DNA of 64,000 bases from Candidatus Poribacteria bacterium (GTDB lineage: Bacteria > Poribacteria > WGA-4E > PCPOR2b), in assembly GCA_965198175.1 (NCBI GenBank), contig OZ240245.1:3675030-3739029 (forward strand), in the 5' to 3' direction. Positions 36,978 to 56,546 of this stretch are shown piece after piece (position 1 is the stretch's first letter; each line of letters opens with the position of its first letter). The position numbers were made by a program, and so were the translations under genes. The notes beneath the pieces are model-generated. The model did not search any database, was not told the origin of the DNA, and saw nothing but the letters and a program-made list of their open reading frames with translations.

Positions 36978-38006
36978 TTACTCCCCACCGGTAGCCGCTT
37001 CCTTCCCGCCTTCTGGTTGCAGCACCGTCGATTTTAAGGAGAGACTGTAATCGAGCAGCATCCTTGCGTACGGGATATTGTGTAGCCCATAACCGCTGTC
37101 GCCTTTTACCATGTCATAATTCCATTTCGCAGCCTTGTACGCTTCACTGTCTAAATCGGTCGCACGGTCAAGCATGGCTTTTATTGCTTGCATTTTACCT
37201 TCCATCTCTTCACGATACCCTTTTAGCCTAGCTTCCATATTATCGTGGCAATCGGCGCAAATCGAGAAGTCCGCGATAAATGTATGTCCGCCGCGTTGAG
37301 CGATTTCATCTTTCGATTCTTTTTTCGCCATGTGACAATGTATACATCGCTTCTTCATGACTCTAACGTGTGGCGAAGGCTTTCGTCTGACGCCCTTCCC
37401 GTCACGTCCGAGGAACATTTCCGCCTGAGATTGGTGGATAATACCCGCTCCGGCGCATCCGCAATCCATTTTATGGCAGGAGACACATAGCTTTCTAGGC
37501 GATCTTACCAATAGATGCTCGCGATTGCTGCTATGCAAATGGCACGATGAACAACTGATAGCGTTCACAGCAGTTTCTAGATTGTAAAGGTGATCTTTAG
37601 ATCCGCCTATTTTGGAATGTATCTCATAGCCGGCCGAATGGCAACTAAGGCAAGAGACGCGTACGGGATGGTCCCCGTGGTCAAGGTTGATCAATGCCTT
37701 CGCGTGCCCAGCAGTCTTCCATTCAGCGTAAGCTGCTTCATTTCCGTGGCACATGTAACACTTTTCGCGGAAAGGGGAATCTTCTTGAATAGCAATGGAA
37801 CTGGTAGCGGGCTCAGAATGCCCTCTCTCGCCCGCTTGGAGGTGGTTAATGGAAATGAATCCAATGATGAGCATAAATGCCGTCAGCAATAAGAATAAGA
37901 GCGATTGTTTCAAATATTGCAATGCTTCTCTCCTTCTCGCGACAACGTAATGTAGGCGCGCCGAGACTCGGTTTCCCACCTCAATCCTGCGGGTGCTACT
38001 TGACAA
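36978..38006 (-). CDS. hexaheme c-type cytochrome with six CxxCH motifs, membrane-anchored or secreted
   Basis: The motifs are CYMCH, CLSCH, CSSCH, CVSCH, CIHCH and CADCH. It has an N-terminal hydrophobic segment. It overlaps the upstream WD40 gene by 11 nt. Confidence 0.7.
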   Translation of the reverse strand: MSSSTRRIEVGNRVSARLHYVVARRREALQYLKQSLLFLLLTAFMLIIGFISINHLQAGERGHSEPATSSIAIQEDSPFREKCYMCHGNEAAYAEWKTAGHAKALINLDHGDHPVRVSCLSCHSAGYEIHSKIGGSKDHLYNLETAVNAISCSSCHLHSSNREHLLVRSPRKLCVSCHKMDCGCAGAGIIHQSQAEMFLGRDGKGVRRKPSPHVRVMKKRCIHCHMAKKESKDEIAQRGGHTFIADFSICADCHDNMEARLKGYREEMEGKMQAIKAMLDRATDLDSEAYKAAKWNYDMVKGDSGYGLHNIPYARMLLDYSLSLKSTVLQPEGGKEAATGGE

Positions 38007-40245
38007 TCACCATCCGCCGTAACGAGCTGTAATTACCCGTACTGAGCTGATAGAAATAGGTGCCGCTTGTGACGCGTTCTCCGTTATGATTGCGGCCGTC
38101 CCAATACGCTGCTTTTGCTTTGTCTCGGTAGACTCCCGATTTTTGACGGCCAATGTCGAGCCTGCGCACGATATGCCCGCTCTGGTCATAGATGCTGAAA
38201 TTCACGAGCGCATCGTTTGCCAACTTATACGGTATCCACGTTTCGGGGTTGAACGGATTCGGATAATTTTGCAGCAACGCCGTCCGTTTGATGCTTCCGA
38301 GCGTCGTGGTGAGTCTTCCTAACGGTTCCACTCCAACCCCAACTCCGGTGGAAGAGATAAGTTCCCACAGCATCACGGTGCCATCGTAACCCGAGCTAGC
38401 CAGGGTTTCGCCGTCGGGGCTGAACGCAAGGTTAAAGACCCACAATGAATGTCCTTTGAGTGAAGTTACGAGTTCCCACGTATCGGTGTCCCAGAGACGA
38501 ACCTTTCCGTCCCAACCCCCACTGGCGAGTGTGCGTCCATCGGGACTGAACGCAAGGCTATTGATCGAATACGCATCTGGCACATCTATGGTTCGCAGCA
38601 GTTCTCCCTTATCAGCATTCCATAATGAAATTGTTTTCCCGCCCCCGCTTGCGAAGAGGTTGCCGTCCGGACTGAACGCAACGCTATCAATAGGCCCCTC
38701 ATGCCCATCTAACCGGCGTAGCCGTTCTCCTGTTTCTACGTCCCACAGAAAAAGTGAGTCCCAACTCCCGCTTGCCAGCTTTCCGCCATCAGGGCTGAAC
38801 GCCACACTTTTCAGATCGCGCAAATGCCCGGTGAGGGTACGCAGCGCTTTCCCCGTATCGGCGTCCCACAAACGGACCGTATTGTCCCGACTCGCGCTTG
38901 CGATAGTGCTGCCATCCGGACTGAACGCGACACTATTGACCATCAAGGTATGCCCCTCCAGCCTTAGTTGCTCTTCTCCAGTGTCGGCGTCCCGCACACT
39001 GACAGTATTGTCCCAACTCGTGGTGGCAATCGTGCCGCCATCAGGGTTGAACGCAACGATATTGATAGAACCGAAATCGATAAACGAACGCCGGCGTTCT
39101 CCCGTTTCAGAGTTCCAAAACCGGATACCGTTCCAACTCGCACTTGCGACGGTGCCGCCGTCTGGACTATACGCAATGCTGTTGGCTGCAGAGTAATGTC
39201 CGGCGATGGTGCGAAGCAGTTCACCCGATTCGACGTCCCACAGTCGGACGGTCTCGGAAGCGCTCAAACCGGCAATCGTGCTGCCGTCGGGGCTAAATGT
39301 AACTGTATCATCGCGCGAACCCGATCCGTTGAGGGTTCGCAACTCTTCTCCCGTTTCGGGGTTCCACAATCGGATAACGTCCTGGCCCCCGGTAGCAAGG
39401 ATTCTCGCATCGGGACTGAACGCAACTGTTTCCACCGAACGCAATGCGATAAGTGTGCGCAGGTGTTTTCCGGTTTGGGCGTCCCATAGCCGAGCGGTAC
39501 CGTCCCGACTCCCGCTTGCGAGGATGTTTCCGTCGGGACTGAACGCTACACTATACACGTAACCCGTGTGCCCCTCGAGTGTGTTCAGGTGTTCTCCAGT
39601 ATCGGCGTCCCACAGGCCGATGGTTCTGTCTGCGCCCGCGCTCGCGATAATGCGGCTATCCGGACTAAACGCGAAGCCGTTGACCCAACTCCCATATCCG
39701 TTGAGTGTGCGAAGATGTTTTCCCGTATTGGCGTCCCAAATTTCAATATCTCGGTTCCCACTTTCGCTTGCTATAGTGCGTCCATCGGGACTGAACAAAA
39801 GGCTGTTGGCCGTACCCGATCCTTTTAGCGTTTCCAGATGTTTTCCCGTATTGGCGTCCCACAGTCGAATGTCATCGTCCCAACTTGCCCCTGCGATTGT
39901 GCTGCCATCGGGACTAAACGCAATGCTGTCGACGTCCGTATTCCCGGCAAGCAGGTCGGCTTCCTTATGGGTTTCTGTATCGTAAAGCCAAATTCCGATT
40001 CCGCTGGCAACCGCGAGTCCGGTACCGTCGGGCGTATACACTATTTCGTGTATTCTGCCTTGACCGAGGCGCAATTTGGCGCCCTCGGGGAGACCCCACT
40101 GCAGAGAATCCTGGGCGTAGCTGTGAGGTGCCCACAGCGCGGCAAGGAACAATAGGCTAAGTGTGAAAACCATTGATTTCTTCATTGGAATAATCCTCCA
40201 TGTTTGAGTTTGGGGGCGCATCCCCGCGATTTCTACTTTTGGCAA
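37996..40245 (-). CDS. WD40 beta-propeller protein with a C-terminal T9SS type-A sorting domain (LLQNYPNPFNPETWIPYKL..)
   Basis: It has a signal peptide and at least 12 WD40 units (..WD, SPDG). The final 90 or so aa match the Por-secretion CTD consensus. Confidence 0.75.
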   Translation of the reverse strand: MPKVEIAGMRPQTQTWRIIPMKKSMVFTLSLLFLAALWAPHSYAQDSLQWGLPEGAKLRLGQGRIHEIVYTPDGTGLAVASGIGIWLYDTETHKEADLLAGNTDVDSIAFSPDGSTIAGASWDDDIRLWDANTGKHLETLKGSGTANSLLFSPDGRTIASESGNRDIEIWDANTGKHLRTLNGYGSWVNGFAFSPDSRIIASAGADRTIGLWDADTGEHLNTLEGHTGYVYSVAFSPDGNILASGSRDGTARLWDAQTGKHLRTLIALRSVETVAFSPDARILATGGQDVIRLWNPETGEELRTLNGSGSRDDTVTFSPDGSTIAGLSASETVRLWDVESGELLRTIAGHYSAANSIAYSPDGGTVASASWNGIRFWNSETGERRRSFIDFGSINIVAFNPDGGTIATTSWDNTVSVRDADTGEEQLRLEGHTLMVNSVAFSPDGSTIASASRDNTVRLWDADTGKALRTLTGHLRDLKSVAFSPDGGKLASGSWDSLFLWDVETGERLRRLDGHEGPIDSVAFSPDGNLFASGGGKTISLWNADKGELLRTIDVPDAYSINSLAFSPDGRTLASGGWDGKVRLWDTDTWELVTSLKGHSLWVFNLAFSPDGETLASSGYDGTVMLWELISSTGVGVGVEPLGRLTTTLGSIKRTALLQNYPNPFNPETWIPYKLANDALVNFSIYDQSGHIVRRLDIGRQKSGVYRDKAKAAYWDGRNHNGERVTSGTYFYQLSTGNYSSLRRMVIVK

Positions 40246-41327
40246 ACTTCCTCTAATTTAAAGCCTGACTAAAATAGAAAAAGTTACAGGAACGGTTGGT
40301 GTTCACGACTGTTCATTTCGGAAGTTTATTCAGAACCAATTTAAGAAGAAAATATAAACCGCGCAAGTTATTCCGGTGATTTGTCAAATGTTGAATGAGA
40401 GCAACCGCCACCACTTATGCTAACCTGTCAACCGCTAAGAACACCTCTCAAAGTCGGTTTGTGCTTAAGAGAATAGTCTTAAAGGTTGACTTGCCGAATC
40501 ACTGAGTTAACAGAGTGAAGAAGGCAATATGAACCAATTGGTCTGATTTGACGAAAACCTAGAGATTTTGCTGCCTTCAGCCGGTTGCTTCATCTACCAT
40601 TACGTAAATGTTTCCTTGCAAGGAAGCCTAATATGCGAACCTGAATCCGGTTCTACGAGATTTTTCAATGCAAATTATACGCCAACACATAATCTACTTC
40701 AAGTTAGGACTAGGTAAGCCTGATGTATCAAGGCAGGCGAACAGTTTGAGATTTTTCATCTAGAGCGCCGGCTGCTGCACGAAACAGTGCAGTTTGAACG
40801 AACCCTTGCACTGTTTCGTGCACCTCCCAATATTTCGGGTTCATTGAGACAATGCGCTTTTCTGTTTTTCAACAGATTTCTAGCGATAATTATACACTCT
40901 CATGTACTTAATCATCAACTCCGTCAAGTCACGATGCCAGTGGCGAATGCTATTACATGATACGCCTCCGTGGCAAACTGTCTATTTACGATTCAGAAAA
41001 TGGCGAGCTGACGATACACGGTTCTTGATTCATCACGGCACTTCGCGAACAAACATGCCACGATGTTGACGAATTACCATCACCGACAGCCAATCGGTTA
41101 AGACGACCATTGGCTAAAAGGGGGAAAAGCAAATATAATGCCAGCTCGAAATGCTTTAAAAATTAGGCGCGACGCGGCACATTACTTGAGAAACTGTTCA
41201 ATACATGAACAGAGTTGTCCACAAACTGAGCGTTCGTAACTGGCTTGACTGATAATGTTATTTTGAGAGGCGAACCTAGTTTAACTTTACGGCAACCGTT
41301 GGGAACGCGCCTGCTGCTCTCGCACAA

Positions 41328-42368
41328 CTATCTAGATAGTGTACTTCCCAACTGTTTAATCCAGCCCCAACTCAATGGTTGCTTCCCGGCAGGAGAAACT
41401 GCGAACTCAACGATAAAGTCCGGGGCGAACCACGCCGGAGACCGGTTGAATGGGCCCGCCTGCCCAATTACCGGTAGGTCAAAGCGATTTTCGTGATTCC
41501 CCTTGCCCGCCCCCGCCTTCACTTCGTATATGGTAATCTTCGAGGAACCGCCTCCGAATATGATTGTGGCTACTTCCTTACCGTCCGGGTTCCACGTCAG
41601 ATCCTGCTTTTCTTCCTGGCTAAAAATTTCATAGACATTTTGGGCACCCTCATCGCCGAGTTCGGCGTCCATCACCCATACATTACCGGTCCCATCTCGT
41701 CGCGTAATCCATCCAATCCGGTCCCCGTCGTGCGAAAATTCGGGCTGGATGTCCTCGCCCTTATGATTTGTGAAATTCACCTGGTTGCCACCGTCTGAAT
41801 TCATCACGTAGATGTCTCCGAGCGTCCGTCCTCGTTTGGAAGCGAACGCAATTCGCCGACCATCCGGCGACCATGAGGGCATTCTATCTGGGGCTGGGTC
41901 GTTTGTGAGGTTGGCAATAATATTGCCCTCGACCGACATTACGTAAATTTCGAGGTTCCCGTCCCGATCAGAAGCGATGGCGAGATTTCTGCCGCCAGGG
42001 TGCCAGTCGGGCCAGCTATCTACCCCTTCATGATCGGTGATTCGCCTCAGGTTCTTGCCGTCAGCGTCTACGATATAGATATCGGTATTTTTCTGCGACG
42101 TCGCATGGAACGCAAGTTTTCGGCCATCCGTGGACCATTCAAGTCCAAGCGGCCGCGGATCGTCATTATCTGTTGCAATGTTGAGCAATGCATTCACAGC
42201 GCCTTTCCCTTCGGGATTTGTCAAAAAAATTGTCTCCTCGCCGGATACTGCTATTGTCGCTTCGTTGGGTGCGAGCGCCTGCCCGCCTATGGGTATAACG
42301 AGGTTGATTAGGATTACCAAGTTGGAGAATGCCAAGATTCTCAAAGTTAATCGCGTTCTTTTTTGCAT
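41328..42368 (-). CDS. TolB-like periplasmic beta-propeller (PD40 repeats), paralogue 1
   Basis: It has a signal peptide, repeated WSPDGRRIAF/SPDG motifs and a conserved tail PAWFAPDFIVEFAVSPAGKQPLSWGWIKQLG. Confidence 0.7.
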   Translation of the reverse strand: MQKRTRLTLRILAFSNLVILINLVIPIGGQALAPNEATIAVSGEETIFLTNPEGKGAVNALLNIATDNDDPRPLGLEWSTDGRKLAFHATSQKNTDIYIVDADGKNLRRITDHEGVDSWPDWHPGGRNLAIASDRDGNLEIYVMSVEGNIIANLTNDPAPDRMPSWSPDGRRIAFASKRGRTLGDIYVMNSDGGNQVNFTNHKGEDIQPEFSHDGDRIGWITRRDGTGNVWVMDAELGDEGAQNVYEIFSQEEKQDLTWNPDGKEVATIIFGGGSSKITIYEVKAGAGKGNHENRFDLPVIGQAGPFNRSPAWFAPDFIVEFAVSPAGKQPLSWGWIKQLGSTLSR

Positions 42369-42569
42369 AAGTCTTGCCTCCGCTTTACAATTTAAAAATT
42401 TACGGCAGTCGCCGTTTATCTAGAAAACTACTGAGAACCAATTGGAATAGGAAAACAACTAGAGTCGAGTGTTGTGCTGTAGCTCAATTTCACTTGTACG
42501 CCGCTCCATTTCTGGTGAGGCATGCAGCAGGTTGAATTATCCGTACGATTGGCGAACGAACCGGAACGC

Positions 42570-42899
42570 CTACTCAACCCTGCCAATCTTGGCGGCTTCT
42601 GGCGCCCGCGTCGGCAAATTCTGCTTAGCGAGCTGATCTTCCGGGATATAGTTGGAGTAATCAGAAATTTTACCGTGGGTCAATGAGTAAACAACAACGT
42701 TTGTCATAAACCGATATACGCCTGGAGAGTAGTGTACGGACCTCGTCGGTAGACTTACCGCCTCCATTGCGCACATGTAATCGCGGCGGACTAATAGCAC
42801 CGAAAGCTTTTCACCAACGGAGATTCCTTCAAGGAAATTGCGTTTTGGTGCTTTTGTGCCAAACCAGAAGATATCGAACCCAACTGGCGGGCCGCCCAT
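42570..42899 (-). CDS. TonB C-terminal-domain-like protein or fragment (109 aa), in the -1 frame relative to 42791-43303
   Basis: The sequence ..LEGISVGEKLSVLLV..AMEAVSL..VHYSPG loosely resembles the TonB C-terminal domain. It has no signal peptide or TM helix of its own. It overlaps the upstream ORF by 109 nt. Confidence 0.4.
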   Translation of the reverse strand: MGGPPVGFDIFWFGTKAPKRNFLEGISVGEKLSVLLVRRDYMCAMEAVSLPTRSVHYSPGVYRFMTNVVVYSLTHGKISDYSNYIPEDQLAKQNLPTRAPEAAKIGRVE

Positions 42900-43303
42900 T
42901 TCATAGAAGTTGTTATAGACCTCGTGTTAACGACCTTGGGAACATTAGGATTGATGGGTTGGTTGAGTTTGACGACTTTATTCGAGAATTCGAGCACCGT
43001 TTGGGGCTCTAAGGATTTCGTGCGAACGACTGCAGTGGTTGTGACTCTGGGTTGCACCTGAACCTGTTCAACGACAACGGTGTTATCCGTTGGAATATTA
43101 GGTTTAATCTGTTTGATAACCGGCTTACGAACTTGGGGTTTCGGCGGCTCAGGCAGTTCAAGAACTTGGGCACCGACTAAGTCTTTGAATTGCGGGGTTT
43201 GTGTGACGAGATAAACACCGAGAATCAGCACAGCGACTCCGTGAAGAATCAACGATGTCATCAAGGCACCTGAAGTTTTCTTGGCACTCATCTTCTGCGT
43301 CAC
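42791..43303 (-). CDS. TonB/TolA-like N-terminal part with a cytoplasmic stub, a TM helix and a Pro-rich spacer (170 aa)
   Basis: The hydrophobic helix is ALMTSLILHGVAVLILGVYLV and the Pro-rich stretch is ELPEPPKPQVRKPVIKQIKPNIP. Confidence 0.5.
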   Translation of the reverse strand: MTQKMSAKKTSGALMTSLILHGVAVLILGVYLVTQTPQFKDLVGAQVLELPEPPKPQVRKPVIKQIKPNIPTDNTVVVEQVQVQPRVTTTAVVRTKSLEPQTVLEFSNKVVKLNQPINPNVPKVVNTRSITTSMKWAARQLGSISSGLAQKHQNAISLKESPLVKSFRCY

Positions 43304-43749
43304 CTCCGATTCGTTAAAGGAAGCGTGGTATTGGACTTAAAATTGAACTGCGCTGCCATTTCGCGGGCTTTATTCTGGATTGTTAATCCCCGTGCCAACC
43401 TGTCTATTTACGATTCAGAAAATGGCGAGCTGACGATACACGGTTCCTGATTCATCACGGCACTTCGCGAACAAACATGCCACGATGTTAACGAATTACC
43501 ATCACCGACAGCCAATCGGTTAAGACGACCGTTGGCTAAAAGGGGGAAAAGCAAATATAATGCCAGCTCGAAATGCTTTAAAAATTAGGCGCGACGCGGC
43601 ACATTACTTGAGAAACTGTTCAATACATGAACAGAGTTGTCCACAAACTGAGCGTTCGTAACTGGCTTGACTGATAATGTTATTTTGAGAGGCGAACCTA
43701 GTTTAACTTTACGGCAACCGTTGGGAACGCGCCTGCTGCTCTCGCACAA

Positions 43750-44796
43750 CTATCTAGATAGTGTGCTTCCCAACTGCTTGATCCAGCCCCAACTCAATGG
43801 TTGTTTCCCGGCAGGAGAAACAGCAAACTCAACCACAAAGTCCGGATCGAACCACGCAGGTGCCCGGTTGATCGAACCAGCCGCCCCAATTACCGGCAGG
43901 TTAAACCGATTTTCGTGATTCCCCTTTCCCCCTGCATCCTTCACCTCGTAAATAACTATCCACGCGGAACCGCCCGCGAACATGATTGTGGCAACTTCCT
44001 TGCCGTCCGGGTTCCACGTCAGATCCTGTTTCTCCTCTTGGCTAAAAATCTCGTACACATTTTCGGCGCCTTCATCACCGAGTTCGGCGTCCATTACCCA
44101 CACGTTGCCGGTTCCGTCTCGTCGTGTGACCCATCCAATCCGGTCACCGTCGTGCGAAAATTCGGGCTGGATGTCCTCACCCTTATGATTTGTGAAATTC
44201 ACCTGGTTGCCACCGTCTGAATTCATCACGTAGATGTCTCCGAGCGTCCGTCCCCGTTTCGAGGCGAACGCAATTCGCCGGCCATCCGGCGACCAGGAGG
44301 GCATTTTGTCTGGGGCAGGGTCGTTAGTGAGGTTGGCTATTGCATTCCCGCCGCTCGTGATTACGTAGATCTCGAGGTTCCCATCTCGGTCGGATGCGAT
44401 AGCGAGCTTATTGCCGCTAGGGTGCCAGTCGGGCCAGCTATCTTCCCCTTCATGATCTGTGATTCGCTTGAGGTTCTTACCATCGGCGTCTACGATAAAG
44501 ACATCGGAATTTTTCTGCGACGTAGCATGGAACGCAAGTTTTCGGCCATCCGGGGACCATTCAATTCCAAGAGGTCGCGGGGCGTCCTTATCTGTTTCAA
44601 TGTTGAGTAGTGCATTGACAGCGCCGCCGCCCTTCCCTTCAGGATCTGTCAAAAAGATAGTCTCCTCGCCAGATACTGCTAATGTCGCTTTGTTGGGTGC
44701 GAGCGCCTGCCCGCCCATTGTAAAAATGAAGTTGAATAGGAAAACAAAACTGGAAACTGCCACGAATCCCAACGTTGATAGCTTTCTGCATTGCAT
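43750..44796 (-). CDS. TolB-like periplasmic beta-propeller, paralogue 2
   Basis: The C-terminal half is nearly identical to paralogue 1. The N-terminal 130 or so aa are about 75% identical. Confidence 0.7.
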   Translation of the reverse strand: MQCRKLSTLGFVAVSSFVFLFNFIFTMGGQALAPNKATLAVSGEETIFLTDPEGKGGGAVNALLNIETDKDAPRPLGIEWSPDGRKLAFHATSQKNSDVFIVDADGKNLKRITDHEGEDSWPDWHPSGNKLAIASDRDGNLEIYVITSGGNAIANLTNDPAPDKMPSWSPDGRRIAFASKRGRTLGDIYVMNSDGGNQVNFTNHKGEDIQPEFSHDGDRIGWVTRRDGTGNVWVMDAELGDEGAENVYEIFSQEEKQDLTWNPDGKEVATIMFAGGSAWIVIYEVKDAGGKGNHENRFNLPVIGAAGSINRAPAWFDPDFVVEFAVSPAGKQPLSWGWIKQLGSTLSR

Positions 44797-44987
44797 AGTT
44801 CTTACCTCCTCTTCACGAGTTTAAAAATCACGGCAAGCGCCGTTTCTCTGTCAAAAACTACTTGAAAACAGTTCCCATTAGGTAATAAAACAGGGTAGAA
44901 ATTGTAATACGCCAATTCTGCTTGCGCGTTTCCAGATAAGAAATTGGAAAACGGTAACGACCCAAATCGACCAACGAACCGTGGAAT

Positions 44988-45317
44988 CTACTCAACCATG
45001 CCAATCTTCGCGGCTTCTGGCGCCCGCGTCGGCAGGTTCTGGTTAGCTAGCTGATCCTCCGGGATATAGTTTGAGTAATCGGAAATCTGACCGTGGGTCA
45101 ATGAGTAAACAACAACGTTCGTCATAAACCGATATACGCCTGGAGAGTAGTGCACCGAACGCGTTGGTAGGCTTACTGCCTCCATCGCGCACATGTAATC
45201 ACGGCGAACTAGCAACACCGAAAGTTTTTCACCAACGGAGATTCCTTCAAGGAAATTGCGTTTTCGTGCTTTTGCACCAAACCAGAAGATATCGAACCCA
45301 ACCGGTGGTCCTCCCAT
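44988..45317 (-). CDS. TonB C-terminal-domain-like protein or fragment, copy 2
   Basis: It differs from 42570-42899 by four aa. Confidence 0.4.
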   Translation of the reverse strand: MGGPPVGFDIFWFGAKARKRNFLEGISVGEKLSVLLVRRDYMCAMEAVSLPTRSVHYSPGVYRFMTNVVVYSLTHGQISDYSNYIPEDQLANQNLPTRAPEAAKIGMVE

Positions 45318-45721
45318 CTCATAGAAGTTGTTATAGACCTCGTGTTAACGACCTTGGGAACATTAGGATTGATGGGTTGGTTGAGTTTGACGACTTTATT
45401 CGAGAATTCGAGCACCGTTTGGGGCTCTAAGGATTTCGTGCGAACGACTGCAGTGGTTGTGACTCTGGGTTGCACCTGAACCTGTTCAACGACAACGGTG
45501 TTATCCGTTGGAATATTAGGTTTAATCTGTTTGATAACCGGCTTACGAACTTGGGGTTTCGGCGGCTCAGGCAGTTCAAGAACTTGGGCACCGACTAAGT
45601 CTTTGAATTGCGGGGTTTGTGTGACGAGATAAACACCGAGAATCAGCACAGCGACTCCGTGAAGAATCAACGATGTCATCAAGGCACCTGAAGTTTTCTT
45701 GGCACTCATCTTCTGCGTCAC
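45209..45721 (-). CDS. TonB/TolA-like N-terminal part, copy 2
   Basis: The first 140 or so aa are identical to 42791-43303. Confidence 0.5.
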   Translation of the reverse strand: MTQKMSAKKTSGALMTSLILHGVAVLILGVYLVTQTPQFKDLVGAQVLELPEPPKPQVRKPVIKQIKPNIPTDNTVVVEQVQVQPRVTTTAVVRTKSLEPQTVLEFSNKVVKLNQPINPNVPKVVNTRSITTSMRWEDHRLGSISSGLVQKHENAISLKESPLVKNFRCC

Positions 45722-45787
45722 CTCCGATTCGTTAAAGGAAGCGTGGTATTGGACTTAAAATTGAACTGCGCTGCCATTTCGCGGGCT

Positions 45788-46816
45788 TTATTCTGGATTG
45801 TTAATCCCCGTGCCAACCTGTTTAATCCAACTCCAGGTCAATGGACGCTTCTCGCCGGGCGATACGGCAAACTGCACAACAAAGTCAGGGTCAAACCAGT
45901 CGGGAGATCGGCTCCCCTGCCATTCCGCGGCGAGTGGCAGGACTTTTCCGTCGGCACGTAAATCGTTTACGACTTCATCTGAATCCATCACAGCGATTTC
46001 CACAAACGGCGCATCCGATAGGACGAGCATTGTACCATCCGGAGACCACGCCGGGTCAAAGTCACAACGCGGTCCGGGCGTGAGATTCTTTACATTTTCT
46101 CCATTAGCATCCATTGTGTGGACATCGCCAGTACCATTGCGTCGGGAGGTCCAGACAATCTTTTGGCTGTCTGGCGACCAACGGGGGTAGCCGTCATCGC
46201 CGCGATGGTTGGTAAGATTCAGCAAGTTTTCGCCATTTGCATCCATGGTGTAGACATCTGAAAGAGTTCTGCCCCGCTTGGTAGCGAACGCAATCTTTCG
46301 ACCGTCTGCCGACCAATCGGGTTGCTTGTCTGGGGCGGGATCGTTTGTGAGGTTCACCCCGACGTTCCCCTGAGCTGTCATTGTGTAGATTTCATAGTTG
46401 CCATCCCGGTTAGTGGTGAAGGCCATCCGCTGACCGCTCGGGTGCCAAGTAGGCCAGCTATCTTCTGCGTCATGGTTGGTGAGTCTCCTGAGCTTCCCCC
46501 CGTCGGCGTTTACAACGTAGATATCAACGTTATCGTTCAGATCGGCATGGAACACAACCCTTCGGCCATCCGGGGACCACCTTACACCCAAGGGTTGGAC
46601 GTCTGCTTTCAGTTGTAGGTCCAATAATGGGCGTAGATTTTCCCCGTCAGGGTCCATCAGCCAAAGATCGCCGTCCGGTTGGCTGCTGGAAAAAACGATT
46701 GTCGGGTCATCGGGTGCCTGCTGTGCTTGAGCGCCTACGGAAAGCATCAAGCTACTCAGAAAAAGCACACCGACCGATAAAAGAGTCCGCGTGGCTAATG
46801 GTAATCTGGGTTGCAT
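45788..46816 (-). CDS. TolB-like periplasmic beta-propeller, paralogue 3
   Basis: PD40 repeats are present. The tail SPDWFDPDFVVQFAVSPGEKRPLTWSWIKQVG is conserved. Confidence 0.7.
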   Translation of the reverse strand: MQPRLPLATRTLLSVGVLFLSSLMLSVGAQAQQAPDDPTIVFSSSQPDGDLWLMDPDGENLRPLLDLQLKADVQPLGVRWSPDGRRVVFHADLNDNVDIYVVNADGGKLRRLTNHDAEDSWPTWHPSGQRMAFTTNRDGNYEIYTMTAQGNVGVNLTNDPAPDKQPDWSADGRKIAFATKRGRTLSDVYTMDANGENLLNLTNHRGDDGYPRWSPDSQKIVWTSRRNGTGDVHTMDANGENVKNLTPGPRCDFDPAWSPDGTMLVLSDAPFVEIAVMDSDEVVNDLRADGKVLPLAAEWQGSRSPDWFDPDFVVQFAVSPGEKRPLTWSWIKQVGTGINNPE

Positions 46817-47364
46817 TGTTATTACCTCTTCTCGCTGTGTTGGTAGTTTGGGTCGGAAGATACAAATCTGAAAAGGAGAAATCCCTTACTCCATTCAAGG
46901 ACAACCTTCGGCGAGTTATCTGGATTGTTCATTTTGCTCAACATAACATTCCGGACAAACCACTATGAGACCTCGACAGGATAGGGGTTACACGTAATTA
47001 TACCATTATTTTATTACTTATGGCTCTAAATGTCAACCTATTTAGTATACTACCACCTAACCGTTCTCAGACCTGAATAAAGAGAGGACCATTGTTCAAT
47101 TGCTACTAAATTGTCGGACAAGTTTCGAACGGTGGTATCAATCGACTGAACGCGGGGCATCCCTGTCCCGATAATCCGGGCTAAGAAGCCTTCCTAAAGT
47201 TATTGTCAACGCTAACCGCACCTCGAATTAGCTCGCACTGACAGAAGTAATGGATCCGTTCGTCAGGGAACGAGTGTAGGATTCGGAATCCCGACCTACC
47301 GATTCAAAATTCACATTAGGCTGTATTAAGGTCGAGTCCTTACGGAGATTTGTGAACTGGATTA

Positions 47365-49314
47365 CTATTTGCTTTGTGTCCGCCTTGCTTGTCGAATGGC
47401 ATGAAGCCCCTGCTGATAAGCTGGGTTATCCGGCTGTAGCGTCAGTGCTTTCTGGATGGTATCCTCTGCCTTCGCGTAGTTCTTGCTGCGGTAATACAAC
47501 CAAGACAGCGTGTTCAGGTATTCCGCCGAGTTGGGCTGAAGTTCGACTGCTTTTTGCGCTAGTTCAAGCGCTCTGTCGAGGTAGATGTCCTTGGCGCCGT
47601 ATAGATGTGCCAACCGTTCATAAGCATGGTGAAAAGAGGTCCCGAGAGAAATTGCCCGTTGATATGCCTGCTCTGCTTCATCAATCTGATTTCGCATCGT
47701 ATAGATTGTACCCAGGAAGTAGTGTGCATCAGCCATATCTGGTTGGCGTTTCAGCGCTGCATTCAAATTATCTGCACCCTCATCTAGCTGTCCTTCCTTG
47801 ACAGCGATAGCACCGAGGATGTAATACGGCTCAGCAAGGTCGGGGTCGTTTCTAACGACCTGTTTATAGTGATGAGCGGCCTGGCGAAACATCCCCTGGC
47901 GTAAGTAGACGCGGGCAAGACCTAGGTGAATCTTTGAATCGTTTAACCCAAAGGACAGAAGTTTTTCAAAGGCTTCCTGAGCCTCATGAAAACGGGACAG
48001 TTGAAAGGCAATATTGCCTAGGTTCTGCCACGCTACTGCGGAGTCGGGTTCGAACTCCAGAGCCTTGCGATACGCTGAATGGGCGCGTTCATACTCGTCT
48101 TCTTTTTTTGAAGTCTGAGCTTTCTTGAACCAGATTGATCCCAGGCCGCTATACGCAGCAGCGAGCTCTGGCTCTAGTTCAATCACGTGCTGTTGAGCCG
48201 CGATAGCCTCCTCAATACGCCCCTGCATGGCATAGATGTGAGCGAGTCCTTCAAAGGCCTCGGATGCGTTCGGATCATGGGTGAGTGCTTTGTTGAACTG
48301 CTGTATTGCCTCATCGTAAATCTTGTCACGGCTGTATTCCCAGCCCGGCTGTATGGACAGCGCATCAGCCTGTGCCATACTCTTGAGACCCTTGTCTATA
48401 GCATCCTTCGCCGCCAAATGTCCCTTAATTTGCCGATACCGCTCCATCTCTGTTGCCGCTTCCGCCGTTTTACCTTGCTTAAAATACAATAGCCCCAACT
48501 GGTAGCGAGCGCCTTCCATCTGGGCGTCAATGCGAATTGCCTCTTGGAACACTTCTACTGCTTCATCCTCCTGTTTCTGTGAGAGATAAACCAGTCCAAG
48601 TTGGAAATAGACCTTGGCGAGGGGCGGTCCCAAGCTGATAGCCCGTTCGTAGTGTTCGGCAGCTTGGTCAACCTTGCCCCGCTCAAACGCAATACGCCCA
48701 AGAAAGTAACTCACATGGGCTGGCAACAGCAAGTCCAGTTTATATGTCCCAGCTCCCGCCTGAGGTGAGGACGGTGCAGTTCGATACTGCCGAGATTCTG
48801 GCGACATCATGAGCAAAAAAGCTTTCTCGAATTCAGCGTGTGCTCGATCATAGTTGTGCCGTTGAAAGTGAACAATTCCCAACTGCGCGTGAGCCTGATC
48901 CCAGTCCGGGAAAAGGTGGATAGCTCGCTCAAGCACAGCTATCGCCTTTTCATATTTCTCCTGTAGGTAGTAGATGCCGCCCAAGCGATAGTACACACTG
49001 GTATCATTTGAATTCAACCGAAGCGCGCTTTCAAACGCCGCTTCTGCTTGGTCTGTCGCATCAAGTGACAAATACGCCAGACCGAGATTCAGGTGCGCCT
49101 CGGCGGACGTCGGGTTATCATCTACCGCCTTTTGATATTGAGCCACCGCTTGTGACAATCCCAGCGTCGCCTCCTGAGATTGTGCTGCTAGGCACAGTCC
49201 CAGCAGCATGACTGAAAAAAAGTCTACAATTCTACAACGGTCGCTTGTTCGAAGGGGGAAATATGCGTTCAAGAACGTCTCTTCATCTTCGCAGTCGTGT
49301 ATTTCGGTATCCAT
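47365..49314 (-). CDS. TPR-repeat protein (649 aa) with an N-terminal signal or anchor
   Basis: It has at least 14 TPR units. Confidence 0.7.
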   Translation of the reverse strand: MDTEIHDCEDEETFLNAYFPLRTSDRCRIVDFFSVMLLGLCLAAQSQEATLGLSQAVAQYQKAVDDNPTSAEAHLNLGLAYLSLDATDQAEAAFESALRLNSNDTSVYYRLGGIYYLQEKYEKAIAVLERAIHLFPDWDQAHAQLGIVHFQRHNYDRAHAEFEKAFLLMMSPESRQYRTAPSSPQAGAGTYKLDLLLPAHVSYFLGRIAFERGKVDQAAEHYERAISLGPPLAKVYFQLGLVYLSQKQEDEAVEVFQEAIRIDAQMEGARYQLGLLYFKQGKTAEAATEMERYRQIKGHLAAKDAIDKGLKSMAQADALSIQPGWEYSRDKIYDEAIQQFNKALTHDPNASEAFEGLAHIYAMQGRIEEAIAAQQHVIELEPELAAAYSGLGSIWFKKAQTSKKEDEYERAHSAYRKALEFEPDSAVAWQNLGNIAFQLSRFHEAQEAFEKLLSFGLNDSKIHLGLARVYLRQGMFRQAAHHYKQVVRNDPDLAEPYYILGAIAVKEGQLDEGADNLNAALKRQPDMADAHYFLGTIYTMRNQIDEAEQAYQRAISLGTSFHHAYERLAHLYGAKDIYLDRALELAQKAVELQPNSAEYLNTLSWLYYRSKNYAKAEDTIQKALTLQPDNPAYQQGLHAIRQARRTQSK

Positions 49315-49341
49315 TAAATTGATACTGGATTCTAGGTAATG

Positions 49342-50391
49342 TTAATTGCTCGGTCCCAACTGTTTGAGCCATCCCCAAGTTAACGGGCGCTTTTCAACGG
49401 GCGAAACTTCGAAAGGTGGCGCAGGAAATGCGGGATCGAACCAAGCGGGAGAACGGGCGCGCTTGCCTTTTTCTAGCACTAGAATCTGTACAAAATTCAT
49501 TGCTGCCTTGAGCTCCGCTTCAAGCGTTTCCCCGGCGCCAAGATTGCCGATCTCGTTGTAAATAAAGATACCCTGTGGAAAAGACAAGGAGGCTATGCGT
49601 TTTCCGTCCGGAGACCAAGTTGCGTCCTTCTTTTCCTCTGTACTCTTGATCCACCGCTGATTCTCTCCATCTGGATCAATGAGGTAAACGTCGCCCGTTC
49701 CATCTCGGCGAGACACCCAAGCCAACGTTAGACCGTCTGGCGACCACTTCGGTTGTATGTCCTGACCCTTATGATTGCTGAGATTCTGCAGGTTTTCGCC
49801 TTTCGCATCCATCACATATAGGTCTGCAATCGTCCGACCTCGCTTGGTCGAGAACGCAATCTTTCGGCCATCTGGCGACCACGACGGTTCGGTGTCAGGC
49901 GCAGCATCCCCCGTGAGATTCGCGCCGACGTTCCCTTGAGCCGTCATTGTGTAGATTTCAAAGTTCCCGTCACGTTTGGTGGCGAAGGCGAGCTTTTGAC
50001 CGCTGGGGTGCCAAGTCGGCCAGCTATCTTCCGCCTCATGCTCGGTGAGCCTTCGGAGATTCTCGCCGTCAGCTCTAATCGTATAGATGTCAATGTTATT
50101 CGTCAAATCAGTATGGAAAGCCAGCATTTCACCGTTTGGGGACCATACCAAGCCCGTAGGTACAGGTTCCCCGCCAATTTCCAAAAGCAGGAGGCGATTT
50201 TCGCCAGCGGGATCCATTGACCAAATGCCAACCTCACCTCCCACCCCGTTGGTACCGATCGCAATGGTTGGTCCCACAGGCGCTTGTGCCCGTGCGCTCA
50301 CTAGCAGGACAACACCGTTCAAGATAAGCACGCCGATGAACACAACAGGCGCGCATATGTTCCGAATCTGCACAACTTGTCTGATTTGCAT
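49342..50391 (-). CDS. TolB-like periplasmic beta-propeller, paralogue 4
   Basis: PD40 repeats are present. The tail SPAWFDPAF..VSPVEKRPLTWGWLKQLG is conserved. Confidence 0.7.
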   Translation of the reverse strand: MQIRQVVQIRNICAPVVFIGVLILNGVVLLVSARAQAPVGPTIAIGTNGVGGEVGIWSMDPAGENRLLLLEIGGEPVPTGLVWSPNGEMLAFHTDLTNNIDIYTIRADGENLRRLTEHEAEDSWPTWHPSGQKLAFATKRDGNFEIYTMTAQGNVGANLTGDAAPDTEPSWSPDGRKIAFSTKRGRTIADLYVMDAKGENLQNLSNHKGQDIQPKWSPDGLTLAWVSRRDGTGDVYLIDPDGENQRWIKSTEEKKDATWSPDGKRIASLSFPQGIFIYNEIGNLGAGETLEAELKAAMNFVQILVLEKGKRARSPAWFDPAFPAPPFEVSPVEKRPLTWGWLKQLGPSN

Positions 50392-53183: not shown

Positions 53184-54482
53184 TTATTTTTCAGTCGTGA
53201 GGCGCTGATACAGACGGTATTCTTCTTTCGCCATTGCGCTGTCTCCTACGAGCTCATAGGTTTTCGATAGATTCAAGTGAAAACGTGATTCGGAAGGGTT
53301 TAGACTAATCGCCGATTGAAACTGTTCAATGGCTTGGGGGTATTTCCCCATCATCGAATAGATACCGCCGAGACTGTTCCGATACGTCGCAACGTTGGGG
53401 CGGCGCTGAACAACCTCTTGATATGCCTCCAATGCTTTCCCGTAGACTTTCAATTGGAAATAAACGTAACCTAGAGCTTCGTAGCCGCGCACGGATTGTG
53501 GGTTGAGCGCGATGCACTTTTCAAACGCGAAGGCGGCAGCACCCCATTGAGCCCGTCCCATTTGAAGACGCCCCAACCGATACCATGCTTCAAGGTTTGT
53601 GGCGTCACTTCCTACTAGGCGTTGGAGACGCTCAATCTCTTCCTCCTCACGGGTCAACCTTTGAAAGGTTTCTAAAGCCTCCTTTCCTTCTTCTGACCGG
53701 TCCATACGGCGATAACAGTTCCCAAGACTCAGGTATGCCTTGGCATGGAACGCATCCTGCTCGATTATCTGTTTGAAGTGTACACTCGCTGTTTCAAATT
53801 CACCCCGCTGGAAATAAGCTAAGCCGAGCGTATAAAACGCCTCTGCTCGCGACGGGTCAAGTTCTATGGCGCGCTGGAGTTCATAAATCGAATCATTAAG
53901 CCGATGCTGTCGAAAGTACGCTATACCCAAAAGCCGATAGCTTTCTGCATGATGAGGATCCATCTGAACCGCTTTCTGAAGCGGCGGAATCGCCTTCGAT
54001 GCCTGCGCCAGCACTTTCAGGTATGTATCACCCAATTTGTAGTAGGCTTCAATGTAGTTCGGATCCGCAATCGTAGCTTGTTGAAACGCATGAGATGCGC
54101 TGTTCCACTGTTGCTGCGCCCCGTAAACCATTCCTAGGTAGTAGTGTGCGTCCGATAGTGACGAGTCAAGCGTGACGGCGCGCTGGAAGGCCACCTGCGC
54201 CTTTTCATAATCTCGACGAAAAATAGCACGCTGCCCTTCGTCGTAAGCTCGAGCGGCTTGATGAGTCTCGAAATTCGCCTTAGTGGCTTCCATTCCTCCC
54301 ACGGCAGACAGCACCCAAATAACGCTTGCTAGAAGTGGTACATTCCATGTCTTTTTGGGAATTTCTTCTATCATCACAAAATGTAAACAGATAAGGAAAA
54401 ACCCATCCCGCACACGTGTCCACGACGGGTTTTTCCTGAAACCAAATCCACTCAGAGCGTCATGAGTTTTACGGGCTAACAT
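53184..54482 (-). CDS. TPR-repeat protein; the true start is probably M37 at 54374, because the first 36 track codons overlie the LamG terminator hairpin
   Basis: It has at least 9 TPR units. After M37 comes a signal-like segment VPLLASVIWVLSAVGG. Confidence 0.65.
   Translation of the reverse strand: MLARKTHDALSGFGFRKNPSWTRVRDGFFLICLHFVMIEEIPKKTWNVPLLASVIWVLSAVGGMEATKANFETHQAARAYDEGQRAIFRRDYEKAQVAFQRAVTLDSSLSDAHYYLGMVYGAQQQWNSASHAFQQATIADPNYIEAYYKLGDTYLKVLAQASKAIPPLQKAVQMDPHHAESYRLLGIAYFRQHRLNDSIYELQRAIELDPSRAEAFYTLGLAYFQRGEFETASVHFKQIIEQDAFHAKAYLSLGNCYRRMDRSEEGKEALETFQRLTREEEEIERLQRLVGSDATNLEAWYRLGRLQMGRAQWGAAAFAFEKCIALNPQSVRGYEALGYVYFQLKVYGKALEAYQEVVQRRPNVATYRNSLGGIYSMMGKYPQAIEQFQSAISLNPSESRFHLNLSKTYELVGDSAMAKEEYRLYQRLTTEK
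54396..54437 (-). terminator. bidirectional intrinsic terminator downstream of LamG paralogue 1 (A5-CCCaTCC..GGaCGGG-T5)
   Basis: The stem-loop is flanked by an A-tract and a T-tract. It is homologous to 56547-56585. Confidence 0.5.
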
Positions 54483-54499
54483 TACTCACAACGTTGCGG

Positions 54500-55405
54500 T
54501 TAAGGGGTGACATGCCATAGCTTTTTGCTGGTCTTTATCTCCGCCCATGTTGTGGACAATTTCTCAGCCGGTGCAACACTGAGCGCAGCAGCAACTGCAA
54601 GCCCGTCCCGCATGATAGATGATATCTCATCTTCGCTCAAAACCCTGCTGAATACCCCGATGTCGTCCACTGTGACTTGAGCAGAAGAACCGAATCTGCC
54701 GCAAATATGCCAAGGACCGTGTTCATCGGTCCGAATAAAGGGTTTCGCACCGGGACCCCGATGCATGAATTCACCATTAAGGTAAATTACTGTCTCTTCA
54801 CTGTTGCCCGTAAACGCATAGTGATTCATCTCCCCGCCGTTTGCAGGAAACCACCAGTGACCGCGCTGGGGAGGTTTACCGTACTGCCACATGATAAACT
54901 CCCCCGCGCCGTCATCCCATGGAAAATGGACCAAAATGCGTTGGTCCCACGGACCGCCGGGCTCGTAGGAAAATAGATCTTTCTGCGCCGCGCTGCCGAT
55001 TTTATCGTTGCGCTGCACCCATGCGGTTATGGTAATTGCTGTCTCATCGGGAAGATCGCCGGCAGCCTCATCATCCTCGTCAGGACCCAAGCGCTCATCC
55101 TTGATGAAATTCGGGATGCTGATAACGCTGCCCTCACCTTCACATTTCAGAGCCTTGCCGAACTTGCCGTCAACCCACTTTGGTTTTTCTCCAGGGTTAA
55201 CCCCCCAGTGACCGCCTTCCAACGTGCCGTCCATGTCATGAGGGTTGCCCGAAGCATCTTCGACTATGCCGCCTTCGCCTTCATCAAAGAGCCAAATGGC
55301 AATGATGTCGGCGGGGTCCAGTGCAGCGAACGTTGGGACGGCAAGCAGCAGCCCCACGAGTGCAACAGTGCTGACACATGCCAGCGTTCTTAGCATAGAT
55401 TTCAT
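54500..55405 (-). CDS. secreted LamG_3/concanavalin-A-like lectin domain protein, paralogue 1
   Basis: It has a signal peptide. The stretch IAIWLFDEGEG..SGNPHDMDGTLEGG..WVDGKFGKALKCEGEGSVISIPN matches the LamG_3 pattern. So does the C-terminal VDDIGVFSRVLSEDEI. Confidence 0.7.
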   Translation of the reverse strand: MKSMLRTLACVSTVALVGLLLAVPTFAALDPADIIAIWLFDEGEGGIVEDASGNPHDMDGTLEGGHWGVNPGEKPKWVDGKFGKALKCEGEGSVISIPNFIKDERLGPDEDDEAAGDLPDETAITITAWVQRNDKIGSAAQKDLFSYEPGGPWDQRILVHFPWDDGAGEFIMWQYGKPPQRGHWWFPANGGEMNHYAFTGNSEETVIYLNGEFMHRGPGAKPFIRTDEHGPWHICGRFGSSAQVTVDDIGVFSRVLSEDEISSIMRDGLAVAAALSVAPAEKLSTTWAEIKTSKKLWHVTP

Positions 55406-56487: not shown

Positions 56488-56546
56488 TTAGCATTGCCTC
56501 CATCTACACCCAGTATCGTATATGATGCCGCATACATACAGGTAAA

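What the first reader, a model, noticed from the sequence alone, without database searches (positions are those of the whole stretch)
40976..45822. Tandem 2.42-kb duplication of a TonB-like plus TolB-like module with mosaic divergence
Units A (40976-43399) and B (43400-45822) are head-to-tail copies. Their 370-bp non-coding tails differ at only about 3 positions. The TonB-like N-terminal ORFs are identical over about 140 aa. The TolB-like propellers, however, are about 75% identical in the N-terminal third and nearly identical afterwards. This mosaic pattern indicates recurrent gene conversion between paralogues, and possibly diversifying selection on the signal-peptide-proximal part, rather than simple drift after one duplication. 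Two further TolB-like paralogues (45788-46816 and 49342-50391) lie immediately upstream in the same orientation.
Basis: seen in the sequence. Interest (0 to 1): 0.7.

Follow-up and report, generated by a model that had tools for sequence, protein, structure and literature searches.

The report
Tandem propeller-gene cassettes in Poribacteria
A sponge-symbiont (Candidatus Poribacteria) genome carries two head-to-tail copies of a module made of a broken membrane-protein gene plus a secreted beta-propeller gene; the copies are two old gene variants recently joined side by side, not one duplicate that diverged in place, and the locus is rearranged repeatedly in related genomes.

Summary
The 2.42-kb tandem repeat is real: unit A is 40978-43403 and unit B is 43400-45821, on the minus strand. 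The join lies in a 4-nt overlap inside a 10/12 imperfect microhomology.

Each unit holds a DUF4159 pseudogene (not TonB-like) with the same 757-nt out-of-frame deletion. Each also holds an intact, signal-peptide-bearing PD40 beta-propeller gene, which resembles only the TolB propeller and is not TolB.

The unit ends are near-identical (0/503 and 3/365 differences). The cores differ at 288/1566 positions; for the propeller genes dS is 0.49 and dN/dS is 0.18.

Comparative data change the interpretation:
- Unit B's core is 100% identical to the single-copy module of another strain (L001).
- The 5' half of unit A's propeller gene differs at 2/724 nt from the "alpha" gene of four other haplotypes, one from another species. 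The rest of that gene is a patchwork.
- The A/B split is at least as deep as a species split (dS 0.28-0.40).
- Two other, independent tandem junctions and single-copy forms exist in relatives.

My reading is a recent microhomology-mediated join of pre-existing divergent cassettes at a recombination-prone locus of eukaryote-like repeat proteins. Gene conversion of an old duplicate is not needed, and diversifying selection is not supported. Whether the assembly is correct could not be tested with reads.

The parts
45788..46816 (-). PD40 beta-propeller paralogue C (342 aa). Its last 34 nt (45788-45821) form the high-coordinate end of unit B and are copied at 43370-43403.
   Evidence: PF07676 PD40, E 3.6e-40. 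It is 46% aa identical to A and B. Boundary alignment.
45209..45721 (-). Unit B, 5' part of the DUF4159 pseudogene. This is the 170-aa ORF (166 aa from the ATG): an N-terminal membrane helix, a Pro-rich linker, then an out-of-frame tail.
   Evidence: Homologues are N-termini of 400-550-aa PF13709 proteins of Poribacteria. No Pfam or NCBIfam hit of its own.
44988..45344 (-). Unit B, 3' remnant of the DUF4159 gene, in the frame of the 109-aa ORF. The deletion breakpoint is at 45344/45345.
   Evidence: Alignment with intact genes of L016, L015 and L011 shows a 757-nt deletion, GGTCGTTAA|CACGAGGTC.
43750..44796 (-). PD40 beta-propeller gene 'beta' (348 aa), intact, with a signal peptide.
   Evidence: PF07676, E 2e-29. 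It is 100% identical to the single-copy gene of L001 and 99.7% aa identical to the proximal gene of L016.
43400..43749 (-). Tail of unit B: non-coding sequence downstream of beta, a copy of 40978-41327.
   Evidence: 3/365 differences from tail A. At those three sites it carries the L001 state.
43389..43403 (.). Duplication junction. There is a 4-nt overlap (43400-43403, CTGT on the + strand) inside the imperfect microhomology GTGCCAACCTGT / GTGGCAAACTGT.
   Evidence: Three-way comparison of the left boundary, the junction and the right boundary. The junction was not found in JGI metagenomes.
42791..43303 (-). Unit A, 5' part of the DUF4159 pseudogene (170-aa ORF). It is identical to the B copy down to 42901.
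   Evidence: 0/503 differences over 42901-43403 vs 45319-45821. Same deletion as in B.
42570..42926 (-). Unit A, 3' remnant of the DUF4159 gene (frame of the 109-aa ORF), of a different lineage from the B copy.
   Evidence: 34 differences from the B copy, mostly synonymous in this frame: dN 0.022, dS 0.46. Closest relatives are L5_1 at 90-96% in the first part, then L9_2 at 95-99%.
41328..42368 (-). PD40 beta-propeller gene 'alpha' (346 aa), intact, with a signal peptide. It is itself a mosaic.
   Evidence: PF07676, E 6e-25. Over 42610-41887 there are 2 mismatches in 724 nt vs L5_2. Segment 41887-41688 is gamma-like. Segment 41687-41438 has no close relative. It falls in the alpha clade of the NJ tree.
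40978..41327 (-). Tail of unit A, which is the start of the 1.08-kb non-coding spacer.
40246..40977 (-). Rest of the non-coding spacer between alpha and the WD40 gene, outside the repeat.
   Evidence: Species-specific, 91-99.5% identical in L001, L005, L008 and L016. No Rfam hit.
37996..40245 (-). WD40-repeat protein with a C-terminal T9SS type A sorting domain. It is the hypervariable neighbour that borders the array.
   Evidence: Pfam WD40, E 7e-119. TIGR04183, 31.5 bits against a cut-off of 23. It is 74-76% aa identical to its counterparts in same-species contigs.
47365..50391 (-). TPR protein (47365-49314) and PD40 paralogue D (49342-50391): conserved upstream members of the cluster.

Best explanation
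The window comes from a Candidatus Poribacteria genome and covers a cluster of secreted repeat-protein genes. On the minus strand the order is FG-GAP, PD40-D, TPR, PD40-C, DUF4159, PD40, WD40.

In this genome the module [end of gene C + DUF4159 pseudogene + PD40 gene + 350 nt of downstream spacer] is present twice in tandem. The two PD40 genes are not a duplicate pair that diverged here. They belong to two old lineages of the same cassette. I call them beta (unit B) and alpha (unit A). Both circulate among strains and species of this group embedded in nearly identical flanks.

The tandem arrangement arose recently by an illegitimate, microhomology-mediated join. The downstream spacer of a beta-bearing copy (equivalent to 40978) was joined to the 3' end of gene C upstream of an alpha-bearing copy (equivalent to 45821). 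Two routes are possible:
- one step, between two DNA molecules carrying different cassettes (unequal crossover or homology-facilitated illegitimate recombination of imported DNA); or
- two steps, with an in-genome duplication followed by replacement of one core through homologous recombination with another haplotype.

The unit ends are identical because they are young copies of sequence that is invariant in the species. The cores differ because they were already old when joined.

The net effect is a genome with one more intact, divergent, separately promoted secreted PD40 propeller. The DUF4159 pseudogene is a passenger.

Shown: the structure, the junction, the lineages, the other haplotypes and purifying selection. 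Inferred: the order and mechanism of events and any adaptive value.
For: - Structure and junction.
- Organism and DUF4159 identity. The same 757-nt deletion is present in both copies and in L001, L005 and L008, while the gene is intact in L016, L015 and L011.
- Unit B plus the region upstream has 0 mismatches to the single-copy contig L001 between 43890 and 46640, and is 98-100% identical to the proximal unit of L016.
- Unit A's upstream region and 5' gene half have 2/724 mismatches to the distal alpha gene of L005/L016, and 2/817 to L015, a different species whose flanks are ~88% identical.
- The NJ tree gives three lineages that cut across genomes: alpha (wA, L5_2, L8_2, L9, L10), beta (wB, L1) and gamma (L5_1, L8_1, L11).
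- dS(A,B) is 0.49, against a background dS of 0.28-0.40 to the sister species and 0-0.12 between strains.
- The tail differences are haplotype polymorphisms: B matches L001, and A matches all the others.
- Independent tandem junctions exist elsewhere. One joins a WD40 5' fragment to the DUF4159 3' end in L005, L008, L015 and L016, also at a 10/12 microhomology (CGCGGnnGCCAG). Another joins the PD40 tail to mid-DUF4159 in L009. Single-copy forms are L001, L010 and L011.
Against: - No haplotype with alpha directly downstream of the pseudogene as the only copy (the postulated alpha-bearing parent) was found. The alpha protein and the window's WD40 protein are not on record, and a pattern for that contiguity gave 0 hits in JGI metagenomes.
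- One base (41282) is shared uniquely by both window tails. That would fit a short conversion tract after the join.
- The window's junction has been seen only in this sequence, and no reads were available to validate it.
- The one-step and two-step routes cannot be told apart.
Confidence: 0.7

Rival explanations
1. This is an old in-place tandem duplication. Its units drifted apart, and their ends are kept identical by recurrent gene conversion between the two paralogues in this genome.
For: There are sharp transitions between near-identical and diverged tracts. One base (41282) is shared only by the two window tails. Mosaicism across the gene family shows that conversion-like exchange does happen at this locus.
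Against: - The junction is absent from the four other same-species haplotypes (L001, L005, L008, L016) and from JGI metagenomes.
- The identical head is equally identical in single-copy L001, so no A-B homogenisation is needed.
- The tail differences track outside haplotypes.
- Both cores have near-identical counterparts in other genomes.
- Two separate conversion tracts, each ending exactly at the junction, would be required.
Confidence: 0.12
2. This is an assembly artefact. Two co-occurring strains, one with the beta cassette and one with the alpha cassette, were stitched in tandem, or a chimeric read created the junction.
For: Unit B and everything upstream is essentially the L001 strain, while unit A and the WD40 gene look like another haplotype. 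Related strains co-occur in one sample: L001 and L008 are both from ERZ25072076. The junction is unique to this sequence.
Against: - A two-allele bubble has no path from the tail back to gene C. The junction is a 4-nt overlap in a 10/12 microhomology, which no overlap or k-mer assembler would join but which is typical of illegitimate recombination.
- A comparable microhomology marks the independent junction seen in four other contigs.
- Comparable two-copy structures occur in independent assemblies, including a circular 5.09-Mb contig at 31x.
Confidence: 0.1
3. Diversifying (positive) selection on the signal-peptide-proximal part of the propeller drove the N-terminal divergence after duplication.
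For: dN/dS is 1.25 in codons 1-40, and aa identity in residues 1-30 is only 43%.
Against: - That window is the signal peptide, where constraint is loose.
- From codon 41 onward dN/dS is 0.0-0.38, and it is 0.18 overall.
- Synonymous sites and the upstream non-coding DNA are as diverged or more so, at 41-68% identity.
- The N-terminal segments are lineage markers shared with other genomes.
Confidence: 0.04

Closest known systems
TolB (Tol-Pal system periplasmic protein; TIGR02800, PDB 7mx5, 1crz, 2hqs)
   Same: Both are periplasmic or secreted proteins with a beta-propeller built of PD40 repeats. The best solved relatives are TolB propeller domains, E 3e-21 over residues 74-228.
   Different: There is no TolB N-terminal domain. 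The TIGR02800 score is 165-183 bits against a cut-off of 343, and only the propeller part of the profile is matched. There is no tol-pal gene context. At least four paralogues sit in one cluster. These are stand-alone ~346-aa propellers.
DUF4159 (PF13709) membrane-anchored proteins of Poribacteria
   Same: The 170-aa and 109-aa ORFs match the N- and C-terminal parts of 400-550-aa DUF4159 proteins at 75-96% identity. Intact orthologues sit at the same place, between PD40-C and the PD40 cassette, in L016, L015, L011, L010 and L009.
   Different: In the window both copies lack 757 nt (about 252 codons of the domain core) and are out of frame. Neither fragment scores in Pfam. They are pseudogene remnants, not TonB.
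Eukaryote-like repeat proteins of Poribacteria (Kamke et al. 2014, PMC3909097)
   Same: The cluster combines TPR, WD40 with a TIGR04183 Por-secretion tail, PF13517/PF07593 (FG-GAP/ASPIC-UnbV) and signal-peptide-bearing repeat proteins. Those are the classes that paper reports as abundant in poribacterial genomes.
   Different: The sections of that paper I searched do not mention PD40 or TolB, and mention tandem only for repeats within proteins. The cassette lineages, the recurrent tandem junctions and the exchange between species are described here from long contigs.
Microhomology-mediated tandem duplication, homology-facilitated illegitimate recombination, and replacement-type flexible genomic islands in bacterial populations (general knowledge)
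   Same: These share head-to-tail units, a junction at a short imperfect microhomology, copy gain and loss between strains, and highly divergent alleles inside near-identical flanks.
   Different: Here the two units were already about 12% diverged when joined. At least three independent junctions affect the same gene in related genomes.

Membership tests
TonB | C-terminal TonB_C domain (PF03544) | tested here: not met
   No Pfam or NCBIfam family was found for the 170-aa or 109-aa ORFs. Intact homologues carry only PF13709.
TonB | N-terminal membrane anchor followed by a Pro-rich spacer | tested here: met
   This can be read directly from the sequence: a hydrophobic helix (LMTSLILHGVAVLILGVYLV) followed by LELPEPPKPQVRKPVIKQIKP. 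The resemblance is only superficial. The same N-terminus is shared with DUF4159, VWA and sigma-factor-domain proteins.
TonB | ExbB/ExbD partner genes nearby | tested here: not met
   None appears among the ORFs and precomputed Pfam assignments of the neighbourhood.
DUF4159 (PF13709) | A ~200-residue DUF4159 domain scoring above the Pfam cut-off | tested here: not met
   The window copies score nothing. Intact orthologues score 91-95 bits against a cut-off of 25.9. A 757-nt internal deletion removes the core. The window copies are a remnant of a family member, not a functional member.
DUF4159 (PF13709) | Sequence homology to family members over the retained parts | tested here: met
   E values reach 1e-76, with 75-96% identity to PF13709 proteins of Poribacteria.
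TolB (TIGR02800 equivalog) | Whole-protein score above the curated cut-off (343 bits) | tested here: not met
   183 bits for A, 165 for B and 167 for C. Only profile positions ~197-358 are matched.
TolB (TIGR02800 equivalog) | N-terminal TolB domain (TolB_N) plus a tol-pal operon context | tested here: not met
   Pfam finds only PD40 and propeller models. The neighbours are TPR, DUF4159, WD40, FG-GAP and a multihaem cytochrome.
PD40 beta-propeller repeat proteins (PF07676) | PD40 repeats above the gathering score | tested here: met
   87-135 bits against a cut-off of 20.9 for A, B, C and D.
Tandem duplication by illegitimate (microhomology) recombination | Head-to-tail units whose novel junction lies in a short homology between the two original end points | tested here: met
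   There is a 4-nt perfect overlap within a 10/12 match (13/17 when extended) at 43400-43403.
Gene conversion between resident paralogues | Tracts where the two paralogues are more alike than either is to its counterparts in other genomes | tested here: inconclusive
   In the head, A = B = L001, so there is no excess similarity. In the tail, the three A/B differences follow outside haplotypes, but one base (41282) is unique to both copies.

The most novel reading that the evidence does not exclude
The DUF4159-PD40-WD40 region could be a dedicated cassette-diversification locus of sponge symbionts. Under this reading, secreted beta-propeller genes are repeatedly duplicated, deleted and patched with segments from other strains and species. 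One example is the ~0.8-kb alpha segment that is almost identical across a species boundary. Selection from the host or from phages on surface or secreted proteins would drive this, as a population-level analogue of antigenic-variation cassette systems.
Probability: 0.15. Interest if true: 0.65.

Novelty: new member of a known kind. Interest (0 to 1): 0.35.

Why it matters
This case shows concretely how the large repertoires of eukaryote-like repeat proteins in sponge symbionts are built and reshuffled. Three processes are visible:
- recurrent microhomology-mediated tandem gains and losses of whole genes;
- old cassette lineages kept inside near-identical flanks;
- exchange of sub-gene segments between co-occurring species.

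It is also a caution for genome scans. A mosaic of identical and diverged tracts in a tandem repeat can arise from joining two old alleles, without gene conversion or positive selection in place. It does not reveal a new molecular system.

Tried and rejected
- Rfam scan of 40000-47500 at E <= 1 gave no match. The conserved non-coding tail is therefore not a known RNA.
- The promoter/terminator scan gave nothing above the shuffled expectation, apart from the small hairpin upstream of each PD40 gene.
- Tandem Repeats Finder found nothing, because its longest period is 500.
- Exact look-ups of the alpha protein and of the window's WD40 protein showed neither is on record. The source contig and the postulated alpha-only parent could therefore not be retrieved.
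- The junction 23-mer and a 47-nt pattern for DUF4159-3'/alpha contiguity each gave 0 hits in JGI metagenomes.
- A homologue search with the WD40 protein was swamped by long generic WD40 proteins. The best specific hit was 80% identical over 57% of the query, so it gave no help on the parent haplotype.
- TonB and TolB assignments were rejected (see the membership tests).
- A reading in which the 109-aa ORF is an independent gene was considered. It starts at a conserved internal Met, has no Shine-Dalgarno sequence (the PD40 genes and the 166-aa ORF have GGAGG), and its purifying-selection signature is explained by divergence that predates the deletion. I treat it as a remnant.
- Structure prediction was not run, because it would not bear on the origin of the repeat.

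Full report
**Observation**

All genes in 37-53 kb lie on the minus strand. Repeat finding and pairwise alignment show two head-to-tail units: A at 40978-43403 and B at 43400-45821.

Overall identity is 88%, distributed very unevenly:
- 3 differences in 365 nt at the low-coordinate end (40978-41342 = 43400-43764);
- 0 in 503 nt at the high-coordinate end (42901-43403 = 45319-45821);
- 288 in 1566 aligned positions in the core (41343-42900), with 41-96% identity per 100 nt.

Fisher tests give p = 2e-24 for the tail and p = 2e-38 for the head.

The junction is a 4-nt overlap, CTGT on the + strand at 43400-43403. It lies within GTGCCAACCTGT, which matches GTGGCAAACTGT at the left boundary at 10 of 12 positions, or 13 of 17 when extended.

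The statement that the propellers are nearly identical after the N-terminal third is not correct. Residues 116-346 are 88% identical, and synonymous divergence there is high.

**What the genes are**

Each unit contains an intact ~346-aa protein with a signal peptide and PD40 repeats (PF07676, E 6e-25 and 2e-29).
- It resembles only the propeller half of TolB. TIGR02800 gives 165-183 bits against a cut-off of 343, and the best PDB hits are TolB at E 3e-21 over residues 74-228.
- There is no TolB N-domain and no tol-pal context, so it is a stand-alone PD40 propeller, not TolB.

The 'TonB-like' 170-aa ORF and an overlapping 109-aa ORF in another frame are the two ends of a DUF4159 (PF13709) gene.
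- Full-length homologues of 400-550 aa, named Candidatus Poribacteria by their sources, match the first ~130 and the last ~118 residues.
- Alignment with intact orthologues shows one 757-nt, frame-breaking deletion (GGTCGTTAA|CACGAGGTC).
- The deletion is present in both window copies and in three other contigs of the same species. These ORFs are therefore pseudogene remnants.

The surrounding cluster contains FG-GAP/ASPIC, PD40-D, TPR, PD40-C, a WD40 protein with a T9SS-type sorting tail, and Laminin_G_3 genes. This corresponds to the eukaryote-like repeat proteins described for Poribacteria (PMC3909097).

**Related genomes**

Exact-protein look-ups and one genome scan gave nine informative loci.

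Same species (flanks about 99% identical):
- L001 has one unit only: C, pseudogene, beta, WD40.
- L005 and L008 have pseudogene, gamma, spacer, then a WD40 5' fragment joined to the last 40 nt of DUF4159, then alpha, then WD40. The period is 2576.
- L016 has the same second junction, but with an intact DUF4159 and beta as the proximal gene.

Sister species (flanks about 88% identical; L015 and L011 are 99% identical to each other):
- L015 has two copies with that same junction.
- L011 has one copy.

A more distant species pair:
- L010 has one copy.
- L009 has a third kind of tandem, in which the second unit starts in the middle of DUF4159.

The junction shared by L005, L008, L015 and L016 also lies in a 10/12 microhomology, CGCGGnnGCCAG.

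The window's junction was found nowhere else. It is absent from the same-species haplotypes L001, L005, L008 and L016, and a search of JGI metagenomes gave 0 hits.

**The two units are old lineages**
- A neighbour-joining tree of the PD40 proteins gives three clades that cut across genomes: alpha (window A, L5_2, L8_2, plus the L9 and L10 genes), beta (window B, L001) and gamma (L5_1, L8_1, L011).
- Window B is 100% identical to the L001 module. There is no mismatch from 43890 to 46640. It is 98-100% identical to the proximal unit of L016 along its whole length.
- Window A is a mosaic:

| Segment | Closest relative |
|---|---|
| 42926-42727 | L5_1, 90-96% |
| 42776-42577 | L9_2, 95-99% |
| 42610-41887 | distal alpha of L005/L016, 2 mismatches in 724 nt (2 in 817 vs L015, another species) |
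| 41887-41688 | gamma-like, 98-100% |
| 41687-41438 | no close relative, 76-87% |
| 41437 onward | common tail |

- For A versus B, dN = 0.087, dS = 0.49 and dN/dS = 0.18. dN/dS exceeds 1 only in codons 1-40, the signal peptide.
- Flanking genes C, D and TPR give dS of 0.28-0.40 to the sister species, about 1.0 to the L009/L010 species and 0-0.12 between strains. The A/B split is therefore at least as old as a species split.
- The DUF4159 3' remnants of A and B differ at 34 positions with dN 0.022 and dS 0.46. That is divergence accumulated while the gene was still intact, before the shared deletion.

**Why the ends are identical**
- In the 503-bp head, A, B and single-copy L001 are all identical, so this stretch is simply invariant in the species.
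- In the tail, the three A/B differences (41025, 41068, 41109) are polymorphisms seen elsewhere. B has the L001 state, and A has the state of L005, L008 and L016.
- This is what is expected if a beta-type and an alpha-type haplotype were joined recently. It is not expected from homogenisation.
- The only hint of conversion after the join is base 41282, which is unique to both window tails.

**Most likely history**

The join is recent and illegitimate, mediated by microhomology. It links the spacer downstream of beta to the 3' end of gene C upstream of an alpha-bearing unit.

It happened either in one step between two molecules with different cassettes, or in two steps: a duplication followed by replacement of one core through homologous recombination. 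Both routes give young ends and old cores, and I cannot separate them.

L001-type single copies are the expected deletion products of recombination between the direct repeats. The postulated alpha-bearing parent, with alpha contiguous with the A-type DUF4159 end as in L9_2, was not found.

**Rivals**
- An old duplication with conversion would need two tracts ending at the junction. It is contradicted by the outside counterparts of both cores and by the absence of the junction elsewhere (confidence 0.12).
- An assembly artefact cannot be excluded without reads. However, a two-allele bubble provides no path from the tail back to gene C, and a 4-nt overlap in a 10/12 microhomology is a biological signature, not an assembler's. 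Analogous tandems also exist in independent long contigs, including a circular 5.09-Mb one (confidence 0.10).
- Diversifying selection is not supported.

**Assessment**

The finding is real and well explained. It is a structural polymorphism in a recombination-prone cluster of repeat-protein genes of a sponge symbiont, and a new example of known processes.

The more interesting by-products are three:
- the same gene has been duplicated recurrently and independently at three different junctions;
- cassette lineages are shared across species;
- a ~0.8-kb segment is almost identical across a species boundary.

Interest is moderate to low for the finding as posed. It would be higher only if the locus proves to be a selected diversification system.

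Noticed in passing
window 37996-40245 (-); L009 9947-16714; L010 9756-16585: The WD40 protein with a T9SS type A sorting tail is only 74-76% aa identical to its counterparts in same-species contigs whose flanks are >99.5% identical. In the L009/L010 species the same position holds a tandem array of at least three or four ~737-aa paralogues that are ~58% identical to each other.
   Followed up: partly
window 54500-57555 (-), variable block 53640-54795: There are three tandem Laminin_G_3 genes (301, 296 and 292 aa), 81-84% nt identical to each other. This stretch is one of the few places where the window and L001 differ strongly.
   Followed up: no
window 42402-42415 and 44830-44843 (-): A 5-bp GC hairpin (ACGGCGnnTGCCGT) followed by a T-run lies ~47 nt upstream of both PD40 start codons. 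It is kept in alpha and beta genes of other species, and with one change in gamma genes, although the rest of the intergenic region is only 41-68% identical. It may be a terminator of the DUF4159 gene or a regulatory element.
   Followed up: partly
window 40246-41327, inverted repeat 40776-40791/40807-40822: A 1.08-kb non-coding spacer lies between the PD40 and WD40 genes. It is present only in this species group (the sister species has ~290 nt) and is 91-99.5% conserved. It has no Rfam match and contains a perfect 16-nt inverted repeat with a 15-nt loop.
   Followed up: partly
window 42610-41794 vs L015 7759-8575: The upstream region plus the first ~575 nt of the alpha gene differ at 2 of 817 nt from a contig of a different species whose flanking genes are ~88% identical. 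This indicates a recent exchange of a sub-gene segment between species.
   Followed up: partly
C-termini of the four PD40 genes (41328.., 43750.., 45788.., 49342..): All four paralogues end in the same motif, VSPxxKxPL(S/T)W(G/S)W(I/L)KQ(L/V)G, a few residues before the stop codon, although they are only 46-52% identical overall. It may be a sorting or interaction signal.
   Followed up: no
window 43291-42791 and 45709-45209 (-): The 166-aa ORF left by the DUF4159 deletion keeps a GGAGG Shine-Dalgarno sequence, the membrane helix and the Pro-rich linker. A truncated membrane-anchored product could still be made. Gene callers annotate it in several assemblies.
   Followed up: no
L011 vs L015 (OZ245030.1 and ERZ25766727 ctg362377): These two contigs of the sister species are 99% identical but carry one versus two PD40 copies. 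The same presence/absence polymorphism therefore exists in a second species.
   Followed up: partly
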